In this document: one piece after another, positions 1 to 30,304 of the stretch
Layout of the letters: each line of letters begins with the position of its first letter
How positions within the stretch are numbered: the stretch's first letter is position 1
Made by a program: the position numbers and the translations under genes
Notes under the pieces: model-generated
Told to the model about the DNA's origin: nothing
The model's database searches: none
Seen by the model: only the letters and a program-made list of their open reading frames with translations
Virus record (IMG/VR): IMGVR_UViG_3300044843_000488
Coordinates: 10,308-74,307 of that record
Strand: one strand, 5' to 3'
Length of the DNA stretch: 64,000 nucleotides
Source of the DNA: a virus

Positions 1-1
1 C

Positions 2-139
2 ACTCGTGAGGAAGTGCAAGAGCTGATTGACGCGGCTATTCGAAAACACAACAGAAACGCCAGCATCATCTCAGCCTTTTTGGGCTGGACGGTACTGGCG
101 TTTTACGCTGATGGTTTATTTAGGTTAGTTGGGCGCTAG
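2..139 (+). CDS. 3' part of a small membrane protein of a cyanophage-type family (partial)
   Basis: Manual translation TREEVQELIDAAIRKHNRNASIISAFLGWTVLAFYADGLFRLVGR*; hydrophobic C-terminus; resembles a recurrent small cyanophage protein. Confidence 0.6.
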   Translation, partial: TREEVQELIDAAIRKHNRNASIISAFLGWTVLAFYADGLFRLVGR

Positions 140-300
140 CCCTTACCTTGGCCTCTGTATTTTTTGCGAGCACTAGCACGCTTAGTGCGACCTGAAAAGA
201 CACGGGAACGCACACGCCAGCCGTCACCAATTCGTGTCCTTTTAGGCTTACCAGCGATATGAATAGTTCCGCTGAGTCCTTTCTTTGCGCGTACAGCCAT
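136..300 (-). CDS. Small basic protein (54 aa), cyanophage-type 'KYRGQGK' family
   Basis: Manual translation MAVRAKKGLSGTIHIAGKPKRTRIGDG...RKKYRGQGKG*; ATG overlaps the endolysin stop (TAATG). Confidence 0.7.
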   Translation of the reverse strand: MAVRAKKGLSGTIHIAGKPKRTRIGDGWRVRSRVFSGRTKRASARKKYRGQGKG

Positions 301-1490
301 TATTTGTTAAGAAGAATACCCCACCCAGTTCCTGGACCTTCAACAGTCCATCTGGGAAGGAAGTTTTTGATTGAATACTTAAGGTGATCACCGTTCTTAT
401 TAGCGAGATATCCGCCAGTAATCACGGACATTTCTCCGTAGGGGTCGTTGACCACTAGATAGGAATCGTCAAGCAGTCCAACGACCAAAAGCCAGTGCCC
501 CGTGCCAGTCGGCGCTGTATTCGGTCCTTTGTGCAGCACACCAATCGGCACTGGAATTCCCTTTTCCAGCTGAATCTTGATGTCGCTTAAGGCCAAATTC
601 TGTCGATACGACCCACGAACACCAAATGACTCCATAGCTCTAAGTTGAGCCTTGTAGTCAGTGGTATCTCCGAATTGCTGTACGCGCTTCAAGTAGAAAT
701 CATCTTTTTGACTACTTTGAAGCTTTCCTGGTCTCAAAAAGTCAACAGCCATCGCACAAGTGCTTGAAAAGCACATGCGATACGCCTGATCTGTTTCGGA
801 GTCAAGCTGGGAAAAGAAAGGAACCGGTAGATCTATGCCGGTGTCTTTATCTGATGGGAGTTTGGTAGTTGAACCGGCGTACTGATCAAGCAGCTTAATA
901 AGCTTGCGACTGTATGCCGGATCAGTTGCGTAACCCTCTTTCACTAAGAGCTGAGCAGCTTCTTCCCGAGTCGCGGCTCTATTGATTCCTTTGTACGCGT
1001 CGTAGTCTTTGTACCAGCGGTTAACAACGTAGTCGACACCCTCTTGGATAGAGGCGAAATTCATGAAGCGAGCCTCAATGGTTACCCACTCGCCCTTGAT
1101 AAACTCTTTCGTTGTCTTAATAGTTCCGCCAGTTCTACCTGTTTGCTTCACTCCCCAGAAATTGAACTTACCACTGGGGTAGCGGCCAAATCCAGACTCA
1201 AGTGCCCATTGTGCCGCAAGGACTTCAGGGAATTTAGCTCCGGCAATAGAGGCGGCTTTTTCAATACCTGCCCAGGTGTTTTCCACTTCGGCTGCAGGCT
1301 CTTGCTGAGGTGCTTTGGCGCGGAACAGCTCGATCCATTCAGCTTGTTCCACCATCAAGGATGGGTCAGCTTTTGCAACGTGTTGCTGAAGCAAGTCAAC
1401 AGCAGCGAGATGCTGAGGGTTATCGGGATTGAAGTATTTGAAAAAATCTCGCAGTTTGCCTGGTGCGAGAGCTAGATCAGACATTGTCAT
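300..1490 (-). CDS. Endolysin: GH73 glucosaminidase-like domain plus C39-like cysteine peptidase
   Basis: AQWALESG, NFWGVK and GYATDPAY (GH73/FlgJ motifs); VPFFSQLD..CFSSTCAM..GHWLLVVG..VNDPYG (C39-like Cys/His/Asp); start may be 1484. Confidence 0.85.
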   Translation of the reverse strand: MTMSDLALAPGKLRDFFKYFNPDNPQHLAAVDLLQQHVAKADPSLMVEQAEWIELFRAKAPQQEPAAEVENTWAGIEKAASIAGAKFPEVLAAQWALESGFGRYPSGKFNFWGVKQTGRTGGTIKTTKEFIKGEWVTIEARFMNFASIQEGVDYVVNRWYKDYDAYKGINRAATREEAAQLLVKEGYATDPAYSRKLIKLLDQYAGSTTKLPSDKDTGIDLPVPFFSQLDSETDQAYRMCFSSTCAMAVDFLRPGKLQSSQKDDFYLKRVQQFGDTTDYKAQLRAMESFGVRGSYRQNLALSDIKIQLEKGIPVPIGVLHKGPNTAPTGTGHWLLVVGLLDDSYLVVNDPYGEMSVITGGYLANKNGDHLKYSIKNFLPRWTVEGPGTGWGILLNK

Positions 1491-1719
1491 TATTTAACCA
1501 AGGTGCTCTAATTTCCATGGTCCCTCCAAGGAGTTCCTGGGCTTTAGAGCCATCGGGTGGATGCTCAACAAATTGGGGCTGGGGCTCTGATGGCTGGCCG
1601 GCATGCCACTCTTTCTCCGCCTGGTCAAGTTTTCCAGGAAGAGTGGTGTAGAACTTTTTAGCTTGAGCCCAGCGTAAAAACTCCTCCTGCCAAGAACGAG
1701 AGGAGAATCGCAGTTCTAC
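1477..1719 (-). CDS. Start-less 80-aa ORF, probable -1 frameshift extension of the upstream holin-like gene
   Basis: Open frame VELRFSSRSWQEEFLRW...ELLGGTMEIRAPWLNNDNV* fills the gap exactly; entered via A_AAA_AAG at 1725-1719. Confidence 0.65.
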   Translation of the reverse strand, partial: VELRFSSRSWQEEFLRWAQAKKFYTTLPGKLDQAEKEWHAGQPSEPQPQFVEHPPDGSKAQELLGGTMEIRAPWLNNDNV

Positions 1720-1874
1720 TTTTTTCCGGAACGGGCTTTCAGTACAAGCTGAAGCGCGGACGCGAGAAGCTGCAGCACGGAGTTTGATTTGACTTTGTCA
1801 TTGGGGATCAAAGCCAAGATCTCCGATACGGCAGTAAGGATTACCCAGAAAATGGGGGATTCAATAAGACCCAT
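1716..1874 (-). CDS. Small holin-like membrane protein (52 aa)
   Basis: MGLIESPIFWVILTAVSEILALIP..NSVLQLL..KARSGKK: two hydrophobic/amphipathic helices and a basic tail, upstream of the endolysin. Confidence 0.6.
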   Translation of the reverse strand: MGLIESPIFWVILTAVSEILALIPNDKVKSNSVLQLLASALQLVLKARSGKK

Positions 1875-2166
1875 TGTGATGAGCTTCAGGGGCTGACTTA
1901 TTGTAACCAATCAATATTTTGTCTAACTTGTAATCCATTCGGTCAATCCGGTTGTCAAGTCGCTCCATCAAGGCCGCAAGATCTTCCTTGTCCACATATT
2001 CTTTAGCCAGCCGAATCTCGATAGCATTCATGCGCTGGTCGACTTGCTCAACTCGTGTTGCATTCAGCTTCTCCATATCGTCAAACCGCTTGCCCAGAGT
2101 AAGGAGAGCAGATGCCGCCCCGCCTACTAGGCTGAGCGCAATGCTCAGAGGTAGTACAGGCTCCAC
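1861..2166 (-). CDS. Lysis-associated membrane/coiled-coil protein (holin- or spanin-like)
   Basis: N-terminal hydrophobic helix followed by a heptad-rich segment (EIRLAKEYVDKEDL..RIDRMDYKLD); first gene of the lysis cassette. Confidence 0.55.
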   Translation of the reverse strand: MEPVLPLSIALSLVGGAASALLTLGKRFDDMEKLNATRVEQVDQRMNAIEIRLAKEYVDKEDLAALMERLDNRIDRMDYKLDKILIGYNKSAPEAHHNGSY

Positions 2167-2237
2167 AAGTTCAACGCTTTTCTTTTAATATAACTAGATT
2201 TGTATTCTAAACTGTATTTATAGACTGGCTTTGTGCC

Positions 2238-2579
2238 GTGATTGAGCCGGGGACATACGACATCACCATTCATCAGGGTGCAACCTTTTCACTGGATCTC
2301 CAGTACAAGGATTCCACGGGTGCTGGTGTCAACATGACTGGTTATACAGTTGCTGGCAAGCTGGTCAATAGGCTCAATACTGCCGCCGTAGCTTCGTTCC
2401 AGACTTCTTGGGTAGACCAAAGCAACGGGAAGTTTCGCATTAAATTGTCTGCTCCTGTTACTGCTGGTATTACAAGCGAGTGTCAGTACGATGTGCTTAT
2501 CACGGAACCTGGCGGTGATAAATACTACATATTGCAGGGAAGAGCCTTCCTTGATCCTGGATTTACGGGGGTCCCGTGA
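2238..2579 (+). CDS. Virion structural beta-sandwich protein (fibre adaptor-like)
   Basis: YDITIHQGATF..YKDSTG..NMTGYT..YDVLI..ILQG pattern typical of fibre-attachment proteins. Confidence 0.6.
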   Translation: MIEPGTYDITIHQGATFSLDLQYKDSTGAGVNMTGYTVAGKLVNRLNTAAVASFQTSWVDQSNGKFRIKLSAPVTAGITSECQYDVLITEPGGDKYYILQGRAFLDPGFTGVP

Positions 2580-2860
2580 TTAACCACCAAGTTCAGGTGT
2601 CTCGCACACTTTCTAGTGTGTTACGTGTGACTGAAACTGCGACACAAGTCGAGGTTAAAAAGCCAGTCACATCTGTTGTGACACTCACAGCGCAAGGCCC
2701 TCAAGGCCCGTCAACTGCCGAGACTGGTTATTTCAATATCGCTGCAATTGACGCCCTGAGCTCAGGGGACATCGGAAAAGTTCTGGAGTGGGATGGTTCC
2801 GCTTTTACGCCCACAAATGAACTTGAAAACGACTTGACCATCACTGGAGGTGCCTTCTAA
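2576..2860 (+). CDS. Hypothetical fibre-associated protein
   Basis: Coupled to neighbours (GTGA, TAATG); QGPQGP motif; C-terminal GGAF like the next gene's GGTF. Confidence 0.55.
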   Translation: MINHQVQVSRTLSSVLRVTETATQVEVKKPVTSVVTLTAQGPQGPSTAETGYFNIAAIDALSSGDIGKVLEWDGSAFTPTNELENDLTITGGAF

Positions 2861-4149
2861 TGGCTGTCACTCTTAAAATCAAACGCAGAGCTAGTGCAGG
2901 TGCCGCTGGTGCCCCTAATGCTCTGAAGGCCGGCGAACTCGCTTACAACGAGAACACGGGCGATCAATCTCTTTACTACGGCTACGGCGACGATGGCAGT
3001 GGTAATGCCACTAGCGTCATCGCAATTGGCGGTTCTGGTGCTTACGCCACACTAAGCACCAACCAAACTATTTCCGGCAACAAGACCTTTACAGGTACCG
3101 TTGCGCTTGGTAGTGCGACTGTTACTGGTCTGGACACTACTGAAGTTTCCGAGGGGACTAATCTCTATTACACCGATGCCCGGGCACGGGGAGCAATCTC
3201 TGTAACGGATTCTGGTGGCGACGGATCTCTCTCCTATAACAGTTCGACTGGGGTTCTGACCTATACCGGCCCCTCTGCTGCCGAAGTCCGAGCTCACTTT
3301 AGTGCTACGTCGGCCTCCGGTGTTACTTACAACTCTTCAACTGGTGTCATTGCTCTGTCAGCTGTCCCGAACAGCTCCCTAGCAAACAGCAGTTTTTCCA
3401 TTAATTCAAATTCGGTCAGCCTAGGTGGCAGTGTCACCTTGGATACCGACGACATCGGTGAAGGTAGTACCAATAGGTACTACACCGACGCTCGGGCCCG
3501 TGCTGCAATTTCGGCAGCCAGTCCGACGACGGGGGTTGCCTACAACAGCACCACTGGTGTTATTAGCCTTGCGTCCATTCCCAATAGTGCGCTGTCTAAC
3601 AGCAGCATCACTATTAATGGTGTTGCTACGCCCTTGGGGGGATCGACCACCACCACTGCGGTCACCACTTCCCTCGGCGCCACGATCACGCTGCAGGGTA
3701 CAGCGGGCGAAGTTGATGTTGCTACTAATGCCGGGACCGGGACCTTCACCATTGGTCTCCCGGATATTGTCAACATTACAGACGATCTGAATGTTGGCGG
3801 TGATCTTACTGTTACAGGCGATCTGACTGTAAACGGTGCCATCACCAGCCTGTCAACGACCGAAGTAAAGGTCGAAGATAAGAATATTGTTCTTGGTGAC
3901 ACTGCTTCACCTACTAACACCACGGCTGACGGTGGTGGTATTACCCTTAAAGGCGCTAGCGATTACACCATCACTTGGGTTAACGCTACAAGCTCCTGGA
4001 GCTTTAACCAGTCGGTTAACGTCACCTCAGGTGGGTACAAAGTTGCTGGAACTGAAGTTTTGAGCAGTTCCCGAGTAATGAGCAATGTCGCCATTACTGG
4101 TAGTGGCAACACTATTGATAACGTGACCCTTGATGGGGGAACTTTCTGA
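2860..4149 (+). CDS. Tail/head fibre protein
   Basis: N-terminal IKRR..AP..L..GELAYN motif; Ser/Thr/Gly-rich; repeated EG.TN.YYTDARAR and YNSSTGV; DLTVTGDLTVNG beta-helix-like repeats. Confidence 0.75.
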   Translation: MAVTLKIKRRASAGAAGAPNALKAGELAYNENTGDQSLYYGYGDDGSGNATSVIAIGGSGAYATLSTNQTISGNKTFTGTVALGSATVTGLDTTEVSEGTNLYYTDARARGAISVTDSGGDGSLSYNSSTGVLTYTGPSAAEVRAHFSATSASGVTYNSSTGVIALSAVPNSSLANSSFSINSNSVSLGGSVTLDTDDIGEGSTNRYYTDARARAAISAASPTTGVAYNSTTGVISLASIPNSALSNSSITINGVATPLGGSTTTTAVTTSLGATITLQGTAGEVDVATNAGTGTFTIGLPDIVNITDDLNVGGDLTVTGDLTVNGAITSLSTTEVKVEDKNIVLGDTASPTNTTADGGGITLKGASDYTITWVNATSSWSFNQSVNVTSGGYKVAGTEVLSSSRVMSNVAITGSGNTIDNVTLDGGTF

Positions 4150-29363: not shown

Positions 29364-29812
29364 CTAAATCGATGTGACCTTACTTAGCGCGGCTACTACG
29401 TGAACGGGTAGCTTCCTTTCTCTGATCACCTTATTTAAGATCTCCTCGGTTTCGGTCTGCTTTGCGGCTACTTCTTCGTTCAAAACAAAAGGCAATAGCT
29501 CGTCAAGCGTCAGCTTTGCCTCCTTCTTGCTACCTGCTAAGGCTTGAGCAACATTGACGACTACTAGTGCTAACTTTGCCGTCGATATAGAGGCTATATT
29601 GGCGCGCCTTTTTTCTTCCTCGTAGACGAACTCTAAGAGCATATTTACCTCTTTTAAAGGTGTTCGCAAAAAGGTTGCACGAGTATAGTCCTCCCCAAAA
29701 GGAGAGACTTTTAGTTTTAGGTACAGCTTGGTGACGTCGAGAGGCTTTTGCGCCAGGAACCTTCGATAACTGTCTATGTGCTTTTCTGGATCCTCGTCAC
29801 CCTCATTCAGTT
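29364..29812 (-). CDS. Tail assembly chaperone gpT-like extension (-1 frame)
   Basis: Frame open from GGGAAAC (29816-29810): ..GKLNEGDEDPEKHIDSYRRF..FLRTPLKEV.. continuing into track ORF 29364..29669. Confidence 0.8.
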
Positions 29813-30304
29813 TCCCGCTTCTTCCTCACCAGTGGGCCAGCCATTTCGCTCCCAATTAATGAACGTAAAAATGTCGTTCAACAACCGGCTGGGAATCAGA
29901 AGGGTGTCTTCTCGCGTCCAGTCACGAGTCTCTACCCATTCGTTAGTTTCCTTGATCTCCCCTCTGAACCGCAAGAAGAGTGTCACCATCTCAATTTGCT
30001 GCTCAGCGACCGTCGAACTATCCTTTTGGATTTCTGCCAGTTCTTCGGCGTGCTCGTACAGAACCTCATTATCGCTTTCAGTATTGCTAAGCAACTCCAA
30101 CGCATCCTTGACGCCAATCTTGCGCTTTTTGGAAACCGCTTTTGCGATTTTAAGCAGGGAGTACGTGTTCTGTGCCTGCTTCCTGGCAATATCCTCGACG
30201 CCCTCTGCTTCGCCCGCAACAAGATCTTTATAGATCGGGAAACGAAACGGGAGAATCTCGTGATATTCCTTTTCTTTGAAAAAAAGCTTTGCGTAACGGC
30301 TCAT
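29807..30304 (-). CDS. Tail assembly chaperone gpG-like
   Basis: Acidic ORF between tail tube and tape measure, ending GCG GGA AAC TGA. Confidence 0.8.
   Translation of the reverse strand: MSRYAKLFFKEKEYHEILPFRFPIYKDLVAGEAEGVEDIARKQAQNTYSLLKIAKAVSKKRKIGVKDALELLSNTESDNEVLYEHAEELAEIQKDSSTVAEQQIEMVTLFLRFRGEIKETNEWVETRDWTREDTLLIPSRLLNDIFTFINWERNGWPTGEEEAGN
29810..29816 (-). other. -1 frameshift slippery site G_GGA_AAC
   Basis: X_XXY_YYZ heptamer just before the gpG-like stop, with an open -1 frame. Confidence 0.85.

What the first reader, a model, noticed from the sequence alone, without database searches (positions are those of the whole stretch)
1477..1874. Apparent programmed -1 frameshift in the lysis cassette giving short and long forms of a holin-like protein
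Seen: the 52-aa membrane gene ends TCC GGA AAA AAG TAG, containing A_AAA_AAG (1725-1719). The -1 frame is open for 80 codons (VELRFSSRSWQEEF..LGGTMEIRAPWLNNDNV*), fills the gap to the endolysin exactly and overlaps its start. It has no ATG/GTG/TTG until its last 12 codons, so ORF callers miss it. Seven nt after the heptamer lies GCGA-TT-CTCCTC-TCGT-TCTTGGCAG-GAGGAG, which fits an H-type pseudoknot (stem 1 is weak). Known: A_AAA_AAG is the dnaX/IS3-type slippery site, and phage frameshifts are best known from tail chaperone and capsid genes. Inference: a fixed ratio of ~52-aa and ~132-aa isoforms may act as a holin/antiholin or spanin-like pair that times lysis.
Basis: partly seen in the sequence, partly recalled or inferred. 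Interest (0 to 1): 0.8.

Follow-up and report, generated by a model that had tools for sequence, protein, structure and literature searches.

The report
Conserved frameshift in cyanophage lysis gene
A tiny membrane-protein gene just upstream of the cell-wall-cutting enzyme of this lake cyanophage ends in a ribosome slip site conserved in about 90 distinct related phages, so it very probably makes both a 52-residue protein and a 132-residue extended form; no paper I could find describes this for a phage lysis gene.

Summary
On the minus strand, a 52-codon membrane-protein gene (ORF-B, 1874-1716) ends GGA AAA AAG TAG, with A_AAA_AAG in phase. An 80-codon -1 frame follows with no start codon until codon 68 and ends 14 nt inside the endolysin.

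The heptamer alone is not above chance (10 copies in the window, 11 expected). The comparative evidence carries the case. The -1 product has homologues in cultured Synechococcus phages (S-CBS1, S-CBS3, KBS-S-2A, S-EIVl, S-B28). Of 115 non-redundant loci holding an ORF-B homologue, 92 carry an in-phase X_XXA_AAG-type heptamer, which in the 77 heptamer clusters tallied lies 0-1 codons before the stop in 76. The main forms are A_AAA_AAG, G_GGA_AAG and C_CCA_AAG. Of those 92, 87 have a recognisable extension in the -1 frame, 83 of them without a start. Of 23 loci without a heptamer, 18 lack the extension, 2 give it its own start and 3 have a startless extension.

The codon before AAA AAG encodes ten different amino acids but always ends in A.

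I conclude that this is a programmed -1 ribosomal frameshift (about 0.85). The proposed pseudoknot is not supported. Function (lysis timing or envelope disruption) is inferred only.

Two earlier follow-ups of this scan reached the same reading on other genomes.

The parts
1861..2166 (-). ORF-A: 101-aa protein with an N-terminal transmembrane segment followed by a coiled coil. It is the first gene of the lysis cassette and overlaps the ORF-B start by 14 nt.
   Evidence: ORF list. There are only weak coiled-coil/DUF2730 and phrog_12220/phrog_462 matches. The hydrophobic segment scores KD 2.0. A homologue lies directly upstream of ORF-B in 50 of 89 clusters.
1716..1874 (-). ORF-B, the short (0-frame) product: a 52-aa small membrane protein with one strong hydrophobic segment, an amphipathic helix and a Lys-rich C-terminus. 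The range includes the TAG stop.
   Evidence: It matches phrog_22542 at E 7.5e-10. Homologues occur in S-CBS1, S-CBS3, KBS-S-2A, S-EIVl, S-B28, P60 and others.
1719..1725 (-). Slippery heptamer A_AAA_AAG in X_XXY_YYZ phase, formed by the last two sense codons of ORF-B plus the third base of GGA.
   Evidence: An in-phase X_XXA_AAG-type heptamer is conserved in 92 of 115 clusters.
1716..1718 (-). 0-frame stop codon TAG immediately 3' of the heptamer, a 'shifty stop' layout.
   Evidence: The stop lies 0 codons (32 clusters) or 1 codon (44 clusters) after the heptamer in 76 of 77 clusters. The phage's own tail-chaperone frameshift site has the same layout.
1477..1719 (-). The -1 frame extension: 80 codons plus TGA. 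The predicted long product is 132 aa with junction ...SGKK|VELR... It consists of a long helix, a Pro-rich linker and the conserved C-terminal motif LLGGxMEIRAPW.
   Evidence: Translation. tblastn gave homologues, with S-CBS3 at 6e-11. The AlphaFold2 model has a helix at residues 10-40 and a small beta hairpin, pLDDT 71. There is no start codon before codon 68.
1681..1705 (-). Candidate hairpin (CTCCTC ... GAGGAG) 13 nt after the heptamer. It is weakly supported and is not established as a stimulator.
   Evidence: 90% of cells pair and there are two compensatory changes, both in one relative, among 5 sequences. The fold scores z = -0.37. The arms coincide with conserved FSS and QEE codons.
300..1490 (-). 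Endolysin, 396 aa (Glucosaminidase plus Peptidase_C39_2-like domains). It has its own ATG, lies in the same frame as ORF-B and overlaps the end of the extension.
   Evidence: phrog_10051 at 1e-125. An endolysin follows the extension in 49 of 88 clusters.

Best explanation
ORF-B is a small membrane-protein gene in the lysis cassette of a ~74-kb lake cyanophage. Most ribosomes terminate at TAG and make the 52-aa protein.

A fraction of ribosomes slip one base back. With tRNA-Lys on AAA and AAG, they re-pair on A_AAA_AAG, then read GTA GAA CTG and onward. This adds 80 residues: a long helix, a Pro-rich linker and a conserved C-terminal LLGGxMEI(K/R)APW motif. The result is a 132-aa membrane-anchored long form.

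The ratio of the two forms would be fixed by slip efficiency. The 0-frame stop directly after the slip site probably helps the slip, either as a 'shifty stop' or by pausing termination; no conserved RNA structure is needed.

Shown from sequence and comparison: the slip site, its phase, the start-less conserved -1 ORF, and their co-occurrence across relatives. Inferred: that ribosomes, rather than RNA polymerase, slip; the efficiency; and the role of the two forms. Judged only by gene position, the role is likely in lysis timing or envelope disruption.
For: 1. The -1 ORF is a real coding sequence. tblastn finds homologues in Synechococcus phages S-CBS3 (6e-11), S-CBS2, KBS-S-2A and S-CBS1, and 47 IMG/VR loci were recovered with it.

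2. The same layout occurs in cultured phages.
- S-CBS3 gp21 ends GGA AAA AAG CTC TAG.
- KBS-S-2A CPKG_00007 ends GCA AAA AAG AGC TGA, with the -1 ORF unannotated.
- S-CBS1 ends CAA AAA AAG GAC TGA.
- S-EIVl ends CCG GGA AAG CGC TGA.
- The T7-like S-B28 and 7B11-B end CCA AAA AAG TAA.

3. Pooled, 218 loci collapse to 115 clusters at 90% nt identity.
- 92 clusters have an in-phase heptamer.
- 87 of those have a recognisable extension in the -1 frame.
- 83 of the 87 have no ATG/GTG/TTG from 12 codons before to 3 codons after the ORF-B stop.

4. The heptamer varies as the tandem-slippage rule predicts: A_AAA_AAG, G_GGA_AAG, C_CCA_AAG, C_CCA_AAA and A_AAA_AAA. The codon before AAA AAG encodes A, G, P, R, E, V, K, S, Q or T but always ends in A, against a background third-position A of 17.6%. 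Before GGA it ends in G, and before CCA in C.

5. Controls behave as expected. Of 23 clusters without a heptamer, 18 have no extension. One example is MedDCM-S37-C6, which has the same ...LKPKK residues written CCA AAG AAA. Two (S-CBS2 type) give the extension its own GTG and N-terminus. Fisher's test on the first 92 clusters gave p = 1e-10.

6. In 22 of 87 clusters, stops in the two frames confine the shift to 21 nt or less (minimum 10 nt), and that window contains the heptamer. Conserved residues such as LIPPDGRW start at the codon overlapping the ORF-B stop.

7. There is no indel in the A-run in independent metagenome contigs.

8. Four database proteins (P0004, P0009, P0030, P0080) are in-frame fusions joined exactly at ...KK|(G/E)L.IP.DG.W, which is the predicted junction.

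9. The phage's own tail-chaperone gene uses G_GGA_AAC followed directly by TGA, the same heptamer-plus-stop layout.
Against: - There is no protein, ribosome-profiling or RNA evidence, and no RNA run holds the sequence.
- No conserved stimulatory structure was found. Downstream folding is only modestly better than the control (mean z -1.19 against -0.51, p = 0.004), and the window's own z is -0.37.
- Three clusters have a start-less extension without a canonical heptamer, carrying only A_AAG or G_GGG_AAG. About 4 clusters have both a heptamer and an overlapping start codon.
- I did not check whether picocyanobacterial tRNA-Lys makes A_AAA_AAG as slippery as it is in E. coli.
Confidence: 0.85

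Rival explanations
1. The extension is translated as a separate polypeptide. Ribosomes terminating at the ORF-B stop would re-initiate at a nearby non-canonical or overlapping start (termination-reinitiation or translational coupling), with no frameshift. The heptamer would only reflect the Lys-Lys C-terminus of ORF-B.
For: Some relatives do have an overlapping start. These include S-CBS2 and L019 (TAGTG / GTGA), L031-37 (TGATG), L167/L173 (TAATG) and L004 (GTGA). The S-CBS2-type protein clearly works as an independent product.
Against: - 83 of 87 clusters have no ATG/GTG/TTG near the junction, and no near-cognate codon is conserved there.
- The third base of the preceding codon, the AAA-AAG order and the G_GGA_AAG / C_CCA_AAG variants are fixed at nucleotide level regardless of the amino acid. 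Coupling does not predict this.
- ORF-B homologues with the same KK residues but no extension do not use the heptamer.
- The independent S-CBS2-type proteins carry an extra ~25-residue N-terminal segment that the start-less versions lack.
Confidence: 0.07
2. The long form arises from transcriptional slippage. RNA polymerase would add an A in the A6 run, so a subset of mRNAs encodes the fusion in frame.
For: The commonest site is an A-run, which reaches A9 in some relatives (L105, L138). In-frame fused proteins exist in assemblies.
Against: Six A's is short for efficient polymerase slippage (established knowledge, not tested here). At least 15 clusters use G_GGA_AAG or C_CCA_AAG/A, which have no homopolymer of useful length yet fit tandem tRNA slippage exactly.
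Confidence: 0.05
3. The split is an artefact or a decayed gene. A sequencing or assembly indel in the A-run would split a single 132-codon gene, or the -1 frame would be open by chance over non-coding DNA.
For: Homopolymers are error-prone. The window comes from a metagenome assembly.
Against: The same split, at the same place and phase, occurs in about 90 non-redundant loci. These include independently sequenced isolates and sites without homopolymers. Independent contigs agree on the window's A-run. The -1 frame is conserved at protein level.
Confidence: 0.02

Closest known systems
E. coli dnaX (tau/gamma) and IS3-family OrfA/OrfAB -1 frameshift sites
   Same: Both use the same A_AAA_AAG heptamer, read by tandem slippage of tRNA-Lys. 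One gene gives two products sharing an N-terminus, and a stop codon lies within a codon or two of the slip site.
   Different: dnaX and IS3 rely on a downstream stem-loop or pseudoknot, and dnaX also on an upstream Shine-Dalgarno-like element. No conserved element of either kind was found here. In dnaX the shifted frame ends at once and gives the shorter product; here the shift gives the longer product. The gene class is also different: a small lysis-cassette membrane protein.
Tail assembly chaperone G/GT -1 frameshift of tailed phages (lambda G_GGA_AAG)
   Same: It is a phage-encoded, annotation-invisible -1 frameshift near the 3' end of a short gene. It adds a C-terminal extension to a minority of molecules and is conserved by position rather than by sequence. 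G_GGA_AAG is one of the heptamers used here. This phage's own G/GT site (G_GGA_AAC TGA at 29816-29807) has the same heptamer-plus-stop layout.
   Different: The module (lysis, not tail assembly), the proteins and the presumed role all differ. The two products here are membrane proteins.
Lambda S105/S107 holin-antiholin dual-start motif
   Same: One lysis-cassette membrane-protein gene gives two isoforms at a ratio set by translation. This is the analogy behind the lysis-timing idea.
   Different: Lambda's isoforms differ by two N-terminal residues, through alternative initiation. Here they differ by an 80-residue C-terminal extension through frameshifting. No holin activity has been shown for ORF-B and no antiholin activity for the long form.
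Spanins (Rz-type i-spanin; u-spanin gp11 of T1)
   Same: The long form has an N-terminal membrane anchor, a long helix, a Pro-rich linker and a conserved C-terminal motif, which resembles the build of an i-spanin. A spanin survey lists Synechococcus and Prochlorococcus phages among those with no identifiable spanin (PMC6139136).
   Different: No partner lipoprotein gene was found. There is no sequence similarity. The charge distribution of ORF-B predicts a cytoplasmic C-terminus, which would put the extension on the wrong side of the membrane.

Membership tests
Programmed -1 ribosomal frameshift site (X_XXY_YYZ tandem slippage) | Slippery heptamer in the correct phase within the overlap of the 0 and -1 frames | tested here: met
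   A_AAA_AAG lies at 1725-1719 in phase. An in-phase heptamer is present in 92 of 115 clusters.
Programmed -1 ribosomal frameshift site (X_XXY_YYZ tandem slippage) | Downstream ORF in the -1 frame that is protein-coding and lacks its own initiation signal | tested here: met
   Protein-level homologues exist. There is no start before codon 68 in the window. 83 of 87 clusters have no start near the junction. Conserved residues begin at the ORF-B stop.
Programmed -1 ribosomal frameshift site (X_XXY_YYZ tandem slippage) | Heptamer conserved at nucleotide level beyond what the encoded residues require, and absent where the -1 ORF is absent | tested here: met
   Ten different amino acids precede AAA AAG, and all their codons end in A. 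The G- and C-type heptamers obey the same rule. Of 23 heptamer-less clusters, 18 lack the extension.
Programmed -1 ribosomal frameshift site (X_XXY_YYZ tandem slippage) | Stimulatory element (downstream stem-loop or pseudoknot 5-9 nt away, or an upstream SD-like sequence) | tested here: inconclusive
   Downstream folding is only modestly better than the control. The pseudoknot's stem 1 is not conserved, and the hairpin lies 13 nt away with two compensatory changes in one of 5 sequences. The adjacent 0-frame stop is conserved in 76 of 77 clusters and may serve instead.
Programmed -1 ribosomal frameshift site (X_XXY_YYZ tandem slippage) | Both products detected, with the junction peptide | not testable with these tools
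   No proteomic, ribosome-profiling or RNA data were available. No RNA holder was listed.
Holin | Small protein with at least one transmembrane domain and a charged, hydrophilic C-terminus | tested here: met
   The family has one hydrophobic segment (mean KD 1.96). N-flank net charge is -1.1 and C-flank +3.9, n = 89.
Holin | Gene adjacent to the endolysin in a lysis cassette | tested here: met
   In the window the order is ORF-A, ORF-B/extension, endolysin. An endolysin follows directly in 49 of 88 clusters, and the small terminase subunit (T7 gp17.5-like position) in 9.
Holin | Match to a described holin family | tested here: not met
   There is no Pfam or NCBIfam hit. The only match is the PHROG phrog_22542, of unknown function.
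Holin | Timed, lethal membrane permeabilisation that releases endolysin | not testable with these tools
   This needs expression and lysis assays.
Two-component or unimolecular spanin | Inner-membrane anchor with a periplasmic helical domain | tested here: inconclusive
   The fusion model shows a transmembrane helix, an amphipathic helix, a long helix and a beta hairpin, with pTM 0.34. Flank charges predict that the ORF-B C-terminus is cytoplasmic. The myovirus homologues of the C-terminal motif are predicted N-in/C-out.
Two-component or unimolecular spanin | Outer-membrane lipoprotein partner (lipobox) embedded in or next to the gene, or a lipobox on the protein itself | tested here: not met
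   The only lipobox-like ORF in 1-2400 is a 37-codon frame that overlaps a run of plus-strand genes.

The most novel reading that the evidence does not exclude
Frameshifting efficiency sets a fixed ratio between a holin-like 52-aa protein and its 132-aa C-terminally extended isoform. The long form would then be either the antiholin/lysis clock or the missing outer-envelope disruptor of cyanophages that have no recognisable spanin. The extension would be a portable module that phages attach to a membrane anchor in three ways: by frameshift (most sipho- and podoviruses), by its own transmembrane segment (T4-like cyanomyoviruses), or as a separate coupled gene (S-CBS2).
Probability: 0.3. Interest if true: 0.85.

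Novelty: new variant of a known kind. Interest (0 to 1): 0.72.

Why it matters
Programmed frameshifts in tailed phages are known from tail chaperones, capsids and a few enzymes. I found no report of one in a lysis-cassette membrane protein.

- If real, it adds a recoding site conserved across many sipho- and podo-cyanophages, including cultured model phages. In their GenBank records the extension is either missing or starts at an internal codon, and in S-EIVl and S-B28 ORF-B itself is unannotated.
- It gives a concrete, mutable handle on how cyanophages time or complete lysis: synonymous heptamer changes, or an in-frame +1A. Little experimental work on this step turned up in my searches for marine and lake picocyanobacteria, whose phages have no recognisable spanins and whose lysis matters for carbon and nutrient release.
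- It is also a natural test case for slip sites that work with an adjacent stop codon and no obvious RNA structure.

Tried and rejected
- **Rfam** on 1-3000 at E <= 1 gave no match.
- **Promoter and terminator scan** of 1-2600 found nothing above the shuffles.
- **Pfam, NCBIfam and PHROGs** for ORF-B, the extension, the fused database proteins and the myovirus homologues gave no named family.
- **ESM Atlas** for the extension gave best scores of 0.88 to unnamed clusters, which is uninformative.
The stem-2 hairpin is kept only as a weak candidate.
- **Common downstream structure** across the family: none is evident.
- **Upstream SD-like element**: I saw no consistent one by eye in the tails printed. 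This was not formally tested.
- **Lipoprotein partner** for a spanin reading: not found.
- **AlphaFold2 models** are extended helices with pTM 0.34-0.36, so I ran no fold search, since matches would be meaningless.
- **RNA evidence**: no RNA holder was listed. Only contigs, not raw reads, could be laid.
Prophage and host distribution and the host tRNA-Lys repertoire were therefore not examined.
- **S-CRES2 and the genes directly upstream of the S-EIVl endolysin** are unrelated. The S-EIVl cassette lies on the other side of that endolysin, on the opposite strand.
Full report
**What is in the window**

The minus strand of 1-2200 holds a compact cassette.
- ORF-A (2166-1861) is 101 aa, with a transmembrane segment and a coiled coil.
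- ORF-B (1874-1716) is 52 aa and ends TCC GGA AAA AAG TAG.
- An endolysin of 396 aa (1490-300) has Glucosaminidase and Peptidase_C39_2-like domains.
- The 225 nt between the ORF-B stop and the endolysin ATG look empty to an ORF caller.

The -1 frame is open from 1719 to the TGA at 1479-1477, which is 80 codons. Its first ATG/GTG/TTG is at codon 68. A_AAA_AAG sits at 1725-1719 in the X_XXY_YYZ phase, directly before the TAG.

A slip would give ...SGKK|VELRFSS..., 132 aa in total.

The heptamer by itself means nothing: the window holds 10 copies against 11.3 expected.

**The -1 frame codes for a conserved protein**

tblastn with the 80 residues finds Synechococcus phages S-CBS3 (6e-11), S-CBS2 (5e-8), KBS-S-2A (2e-4) and S-CBS1. 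It also finds the C-terminal motif in T4-like cyanomyoviruses.

In the records of the cultured phages the same anatomy appears.
- S-CBS3 gp21 (46 aa) ends GGA AAA AAG CTC TAG. Homology to the extension starts 9 nt after that stop, upstream of the annotated start of gp22.
- KBS-S-2A CPKG_00007 ends GCA AAA AAG AGC TGA. The 79-codon -1 ORF up to the endolysin is not annotated at all.
- S-CBS1 ends CAA AAA AAG GAC TGA, and gp23 is annotated from an internal TTG.
- S-EIVl ends CCG GGA AAG CGC TGA, and ORF-B is unannotated.
- The T7-like podoviruses S-B28 and 7B11-B end CCA AAA AAG TAA, with a 52-62-codon -1 ORF running into the small terminase gene.

**Wider sampling**

Three IMG/VR scans added 207 loci. 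One was seeded with the extension, one with ORF-B and one with a fused database protein. The ORF-B-seeded scan is not biased towards loci that have an extension.

Pooled with the isolates, 218 loci collapse to 115 clusters at 90% nucleotide identity.
- 92 clusters carry an in-phase heptamer of the X_XXA_AAG type within the last codons of ORF-B.
- 87 of those have a motif-recognisable extension in the -1 frame.
- 83 of the 87 have no ATG/GTG/TTG from 12 codons before to 3 codons after the ORF-B stop.
- 4 more of the 92 have a divergent -1 ORF or one cut by the contig end (43-65 codons), and 1 has only 18 codons.

**The heptamer is selected at nucleotide level**

In the first 92 clusters, 77 had heptamers.
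- A_AAA_AAG: 62 clusters.
- G_GGA_AAG: 10 clusters.
- C_CCA_AAG or C_CCA_AAA: 5 clusters.

A_AAA_AAA also occurs in the pooled set.

The codon before AAA AAG encodes A, G, P, R, E, V, K, S, Q or T, but is always the synonym ending in A (GCA, GGA, CCA, CGA, GAA, GTA, AAA, TCA, CAA, ACA). Third-position A is only 17.6% elsewhere in ORF-B. Before GGA AAG the codon ends in G (AAG, CCG, TCG). Before CCA AAG/A it ends in C (TTC, CTC).

This is the signature of tandem tRNA slippage, not of a conserved Lys-Lys tail.

The 0-frame stop follows after 0 codons (32 clusters) or 1 codon (44 clusters) in 76 of 77 clusters. That is far tighter than drift in an unconstrained frame would give.

In 22 of 87 clusters, stops in the two frames confine any shift to 21 nt or less (minimum 10 nt), and that window contains the heptamer.

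Conserved residues of the extension, such as (G)LIPPDGRW..RFSTRS, begin at the codon that overlaps the ORF-B stop. This leaves no room for a ribosome-binding site.

**Controls**

Of the 23 clusters without a canonical heptamer, 18 have no extension.
- These include P60, S-CBP42, S-CBP1, S-CBP4, S-SRP01, DSL-LC07 and S-CBS4.
- They also include MedDCM-OCT-S37-C6. Its ORF-B is 67% identical to that of S-B28 and ends in the same ...LKPKK residues, but these are written CCA AAG AAA, and no -1 ORF follows.

Two clusters (S-CBS2 and L019) have the extension as an independent gene. It has a GTG overlapping the ORF-B stop and an extra ~25-residue N-terminal segment.

Three clusters are exceptions, with a start-less extension and only a minimal or non-canonical site.
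- L085 reads A TCA AAG TAG, where stops restrict the shift to two codons that contain A_AAG.
- L195 reads GTA AAG AAG GGC.
- L050 reads G GGG AAG.

Heptamer against start-less extension gave Fisher p = 1e-10 on the first 92 clusters.

**Rival explanations**

Sequencing error is excluded by the number of independent loci, by the sites without homopolymers, and by contigs from other lake metagenomes that cross the window's A-run unchanged.

Transcriptional slippage cannot explain the G_GGA_AAG and C_CCA_AAG sites. It remains possible as a contributor at the A6-A9 runs.

Termination-reinitiation is plausible only for the few clusters with TGATG, TAATG or GTGA overlaps. It does not explain the nucleotide-level constraints.

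**Stimulators**

Among the window and its four closest relatives (71-77% ORF-B identity), stem 1 keeps only two invariant inner pairs. Stem 2 (CTCCTC/GAGGAG, 1705-1700 with 1686-1681) is 90% paired, with two compensatory changes that both sit in one sequence.

That hairpin begins 13 nt after the heptamer and coincides with conserved FSS and QEE codons. The window's 60-nt downstream fold has z = -0.37.

Across 77 clusters, downstream folding is only modestly better than a control segment (mean z -1.19 against -0.51, Mann-Whitney p = 0.004). No shared structure is visible.

The one conserved flanking feature is the adjacent stop codon. From established work on 'shifty stops' (Weiss, Dunn, Atkins and Gesteland, 1987; own knowledge, not checked here), a stop 3' of a slippery run raises frameshifting.

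The phage's own tail assembly chaperone site, G_GGA_AAC followed at once by TGA (29816-29807), has the same layout.

**The proteins**

ORF-B family, n = 89:
- It has one strong hydrophobic segment with a conserved Ser-Glu.
- A conserved LK(D/S)NS turn follows, then an amphipathic helix and a Lys-rich end.
- The flank charges (-1.1 N-terminal, +3.9 C-terminal) predict N-out/C-in.

Extension:
- It has no hydrophobic segment.
- AlphaFold2 gives a long helix (residues 10-40, pLDDT 83-89), a Pro-rich linker and a small C-terminal beta hairpin that carries LLGGxMEI(K/R)APW.
- A model of an in-frame fused database protein shows the same parts strung out, with pTM 0.34.

No curated family matches either part.

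The C-terminal motif also occurs in ~130-140-aa proteins of cyanomyoviruses (S-B68, DSL-LC02). These have their own Lys-rich N-terminus and transmembrane segment, and in S-B68 the gene lies next to the endolysin. They are predicted N-in/C-out.

So the extension is joined to a membrane anchor in three ways: by frameshift, by its own transmembrane segment, or as a coupled separate gene. This argues that the membrane-tethered form is the working form. The predicted sidedness conflicts between the two anchored versions, so I cannot say on which side of the membrane it acts.

**Genomic context**

An endolysin follows the extension in 49 of 88 clusters. The small terminase gene, the position of the T7 holin gene, follows in 9. 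An ORF-A homologue precedes ORF-B in 50 of 89.

The function is therefore most likely in lysis. The options are a holin-like protein with a frameshift-made regulator, or an envelope-spanning or tethering factor. Either is inference from position and build. A lipoprotein partner for a spanin reading was not found.

**Comparison with what is known**

Mechanistically this belongs with the dnaX, IS3 and G/GT class of -1 sites. It differs in gene class, in lacking an evident RNA stimulator and in its tight coupling to the 0-frame stop.

Full-text searches found no description of it. I searched for cyanophage plus frameshift/holin/slippery, lysis cassette plus programmed frameshift, holin plus antiholin plus ribosomal frameshifting, and the PRFect paper.

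The PRFect paper cites a two-gene Lactococcus phage lysin (Shearman 1994) and the MS2 coat/lysis case as lysis-related precedents. Neither is a membrane protein with a C-terminal extension.

The spanin survey PMC6139136 lists Synechococcus and Prochlorococcus phages among those with no identifiable spanin.

Within this scan, two earlier follow-ups reached the same conclusion on other genomes, and others report frameshift-built endolysins in cyanophages. I treat these as leads, not as evidence; the tests above were run independently here.

**Limits**

- All the evidence is comparative; no protein or RNA data exist here.
- Efficiency, the role of the stop codon, topology and function remain to be measured.
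- Host genomes could not be reached from a virus record.

Noticed in passing
window 29807-29816 (-), with ORFs 30361-29807 and 29825-29364 upstream of the tape measure gene 29352-24490: This is the canonical tail assembly chaperone G/GT-type -1 frameshift. GCG GGA AAC TGA gives the in-phase heptamer G_GGA_AAC, followed at once by the 0-frame stop. The -1 frame continues for ~150 codons up to the tape measure gene. It has the same heptamer-plus-stop layout as the lysis gene.
   Followed up: partly
GenBank records: L002 2471-2710 (KBS-S-2A); L057 804-944 and 929-1210 (S-EIVl); L056 1492-1638 and 1617-1823 (S-B28); L001 2486-2704 (S-CBS3 gp22); L053 (S-CBS1 gp23): Annotation gaps in cultured phages. 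The KBS-S-2A extension is unannotated. ORF-B is unannotated in S-EIVl and S-B28. S-CBS3 gp22, S-CBS1 gp23 and the S-EIVl protein AHV82131 are annotated from internal start codons, which cuts off conserved N-terminal residues.
   Followed up: yes
proteins P0004, P0009, P0030, P0080 (ENA metagenome assemblies): These are single-ORF, in-frame fusions of ORF-B and the extension, 130-148 aa. They are joined exactly at the predicted frameshift junction (...KK|(G/E)L.IP.DG.W). They could be natural +1A variants or homopolymer errors.
   Followed up: partly
L051 1213-1608 (S-B68) and L052 1228-1650 (DSL-LC02): T4-like cyanomyoviruses carry the extension's C-terminal motif (PDGSxAQxLLGGxMR..APW) on a 131-140-aa protein. 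That protein has its own Lys-rich N-terminus and transmembrane segment. In S-B68 it lies two genes after the endolysin.
   Followed up: partly
window ~1715-1731, contigs of runs X17 and X20: Several contigs from other lake metagenomes end within a few bases of the A-run. One X20 contig matches 1679-1728 at lower identity and then runs on into unlike sequence. This suggests co-occurring strains with a different ORF-B, with the conserved slip site as a boundary of similarity.
   Followed up: no
window 136-300 (-): A 54-codon, extremely basic ORF (about a third Lys/Arg) starts in a TAATG overlap with the endolysin stop. It is the last gene of the minus-strand cassette, before convergent plus-strand genes. 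No family was searched.
   Followed up: no
L105 and L138 (IMG/VR): One subgroup has a 9-A run before G (CCA AAA AAA AAG). This is long enough that RNA polymerase slippage or length variation could add to, or replace, ribosomal slippage there.
   Followed up: no
L058 (P60 gp39), L062 (S-CBP42), L060/L063-L065 and L206-L226: Many T7-like cyanopodoviruses have a longer ORF-B (65-77 aa). It carries an in-frame, unrelated, charged helical tail (...KPxRKEDDK...) instead of the frameshift extension. This is a different solution at the same position.
   Followed up: partly
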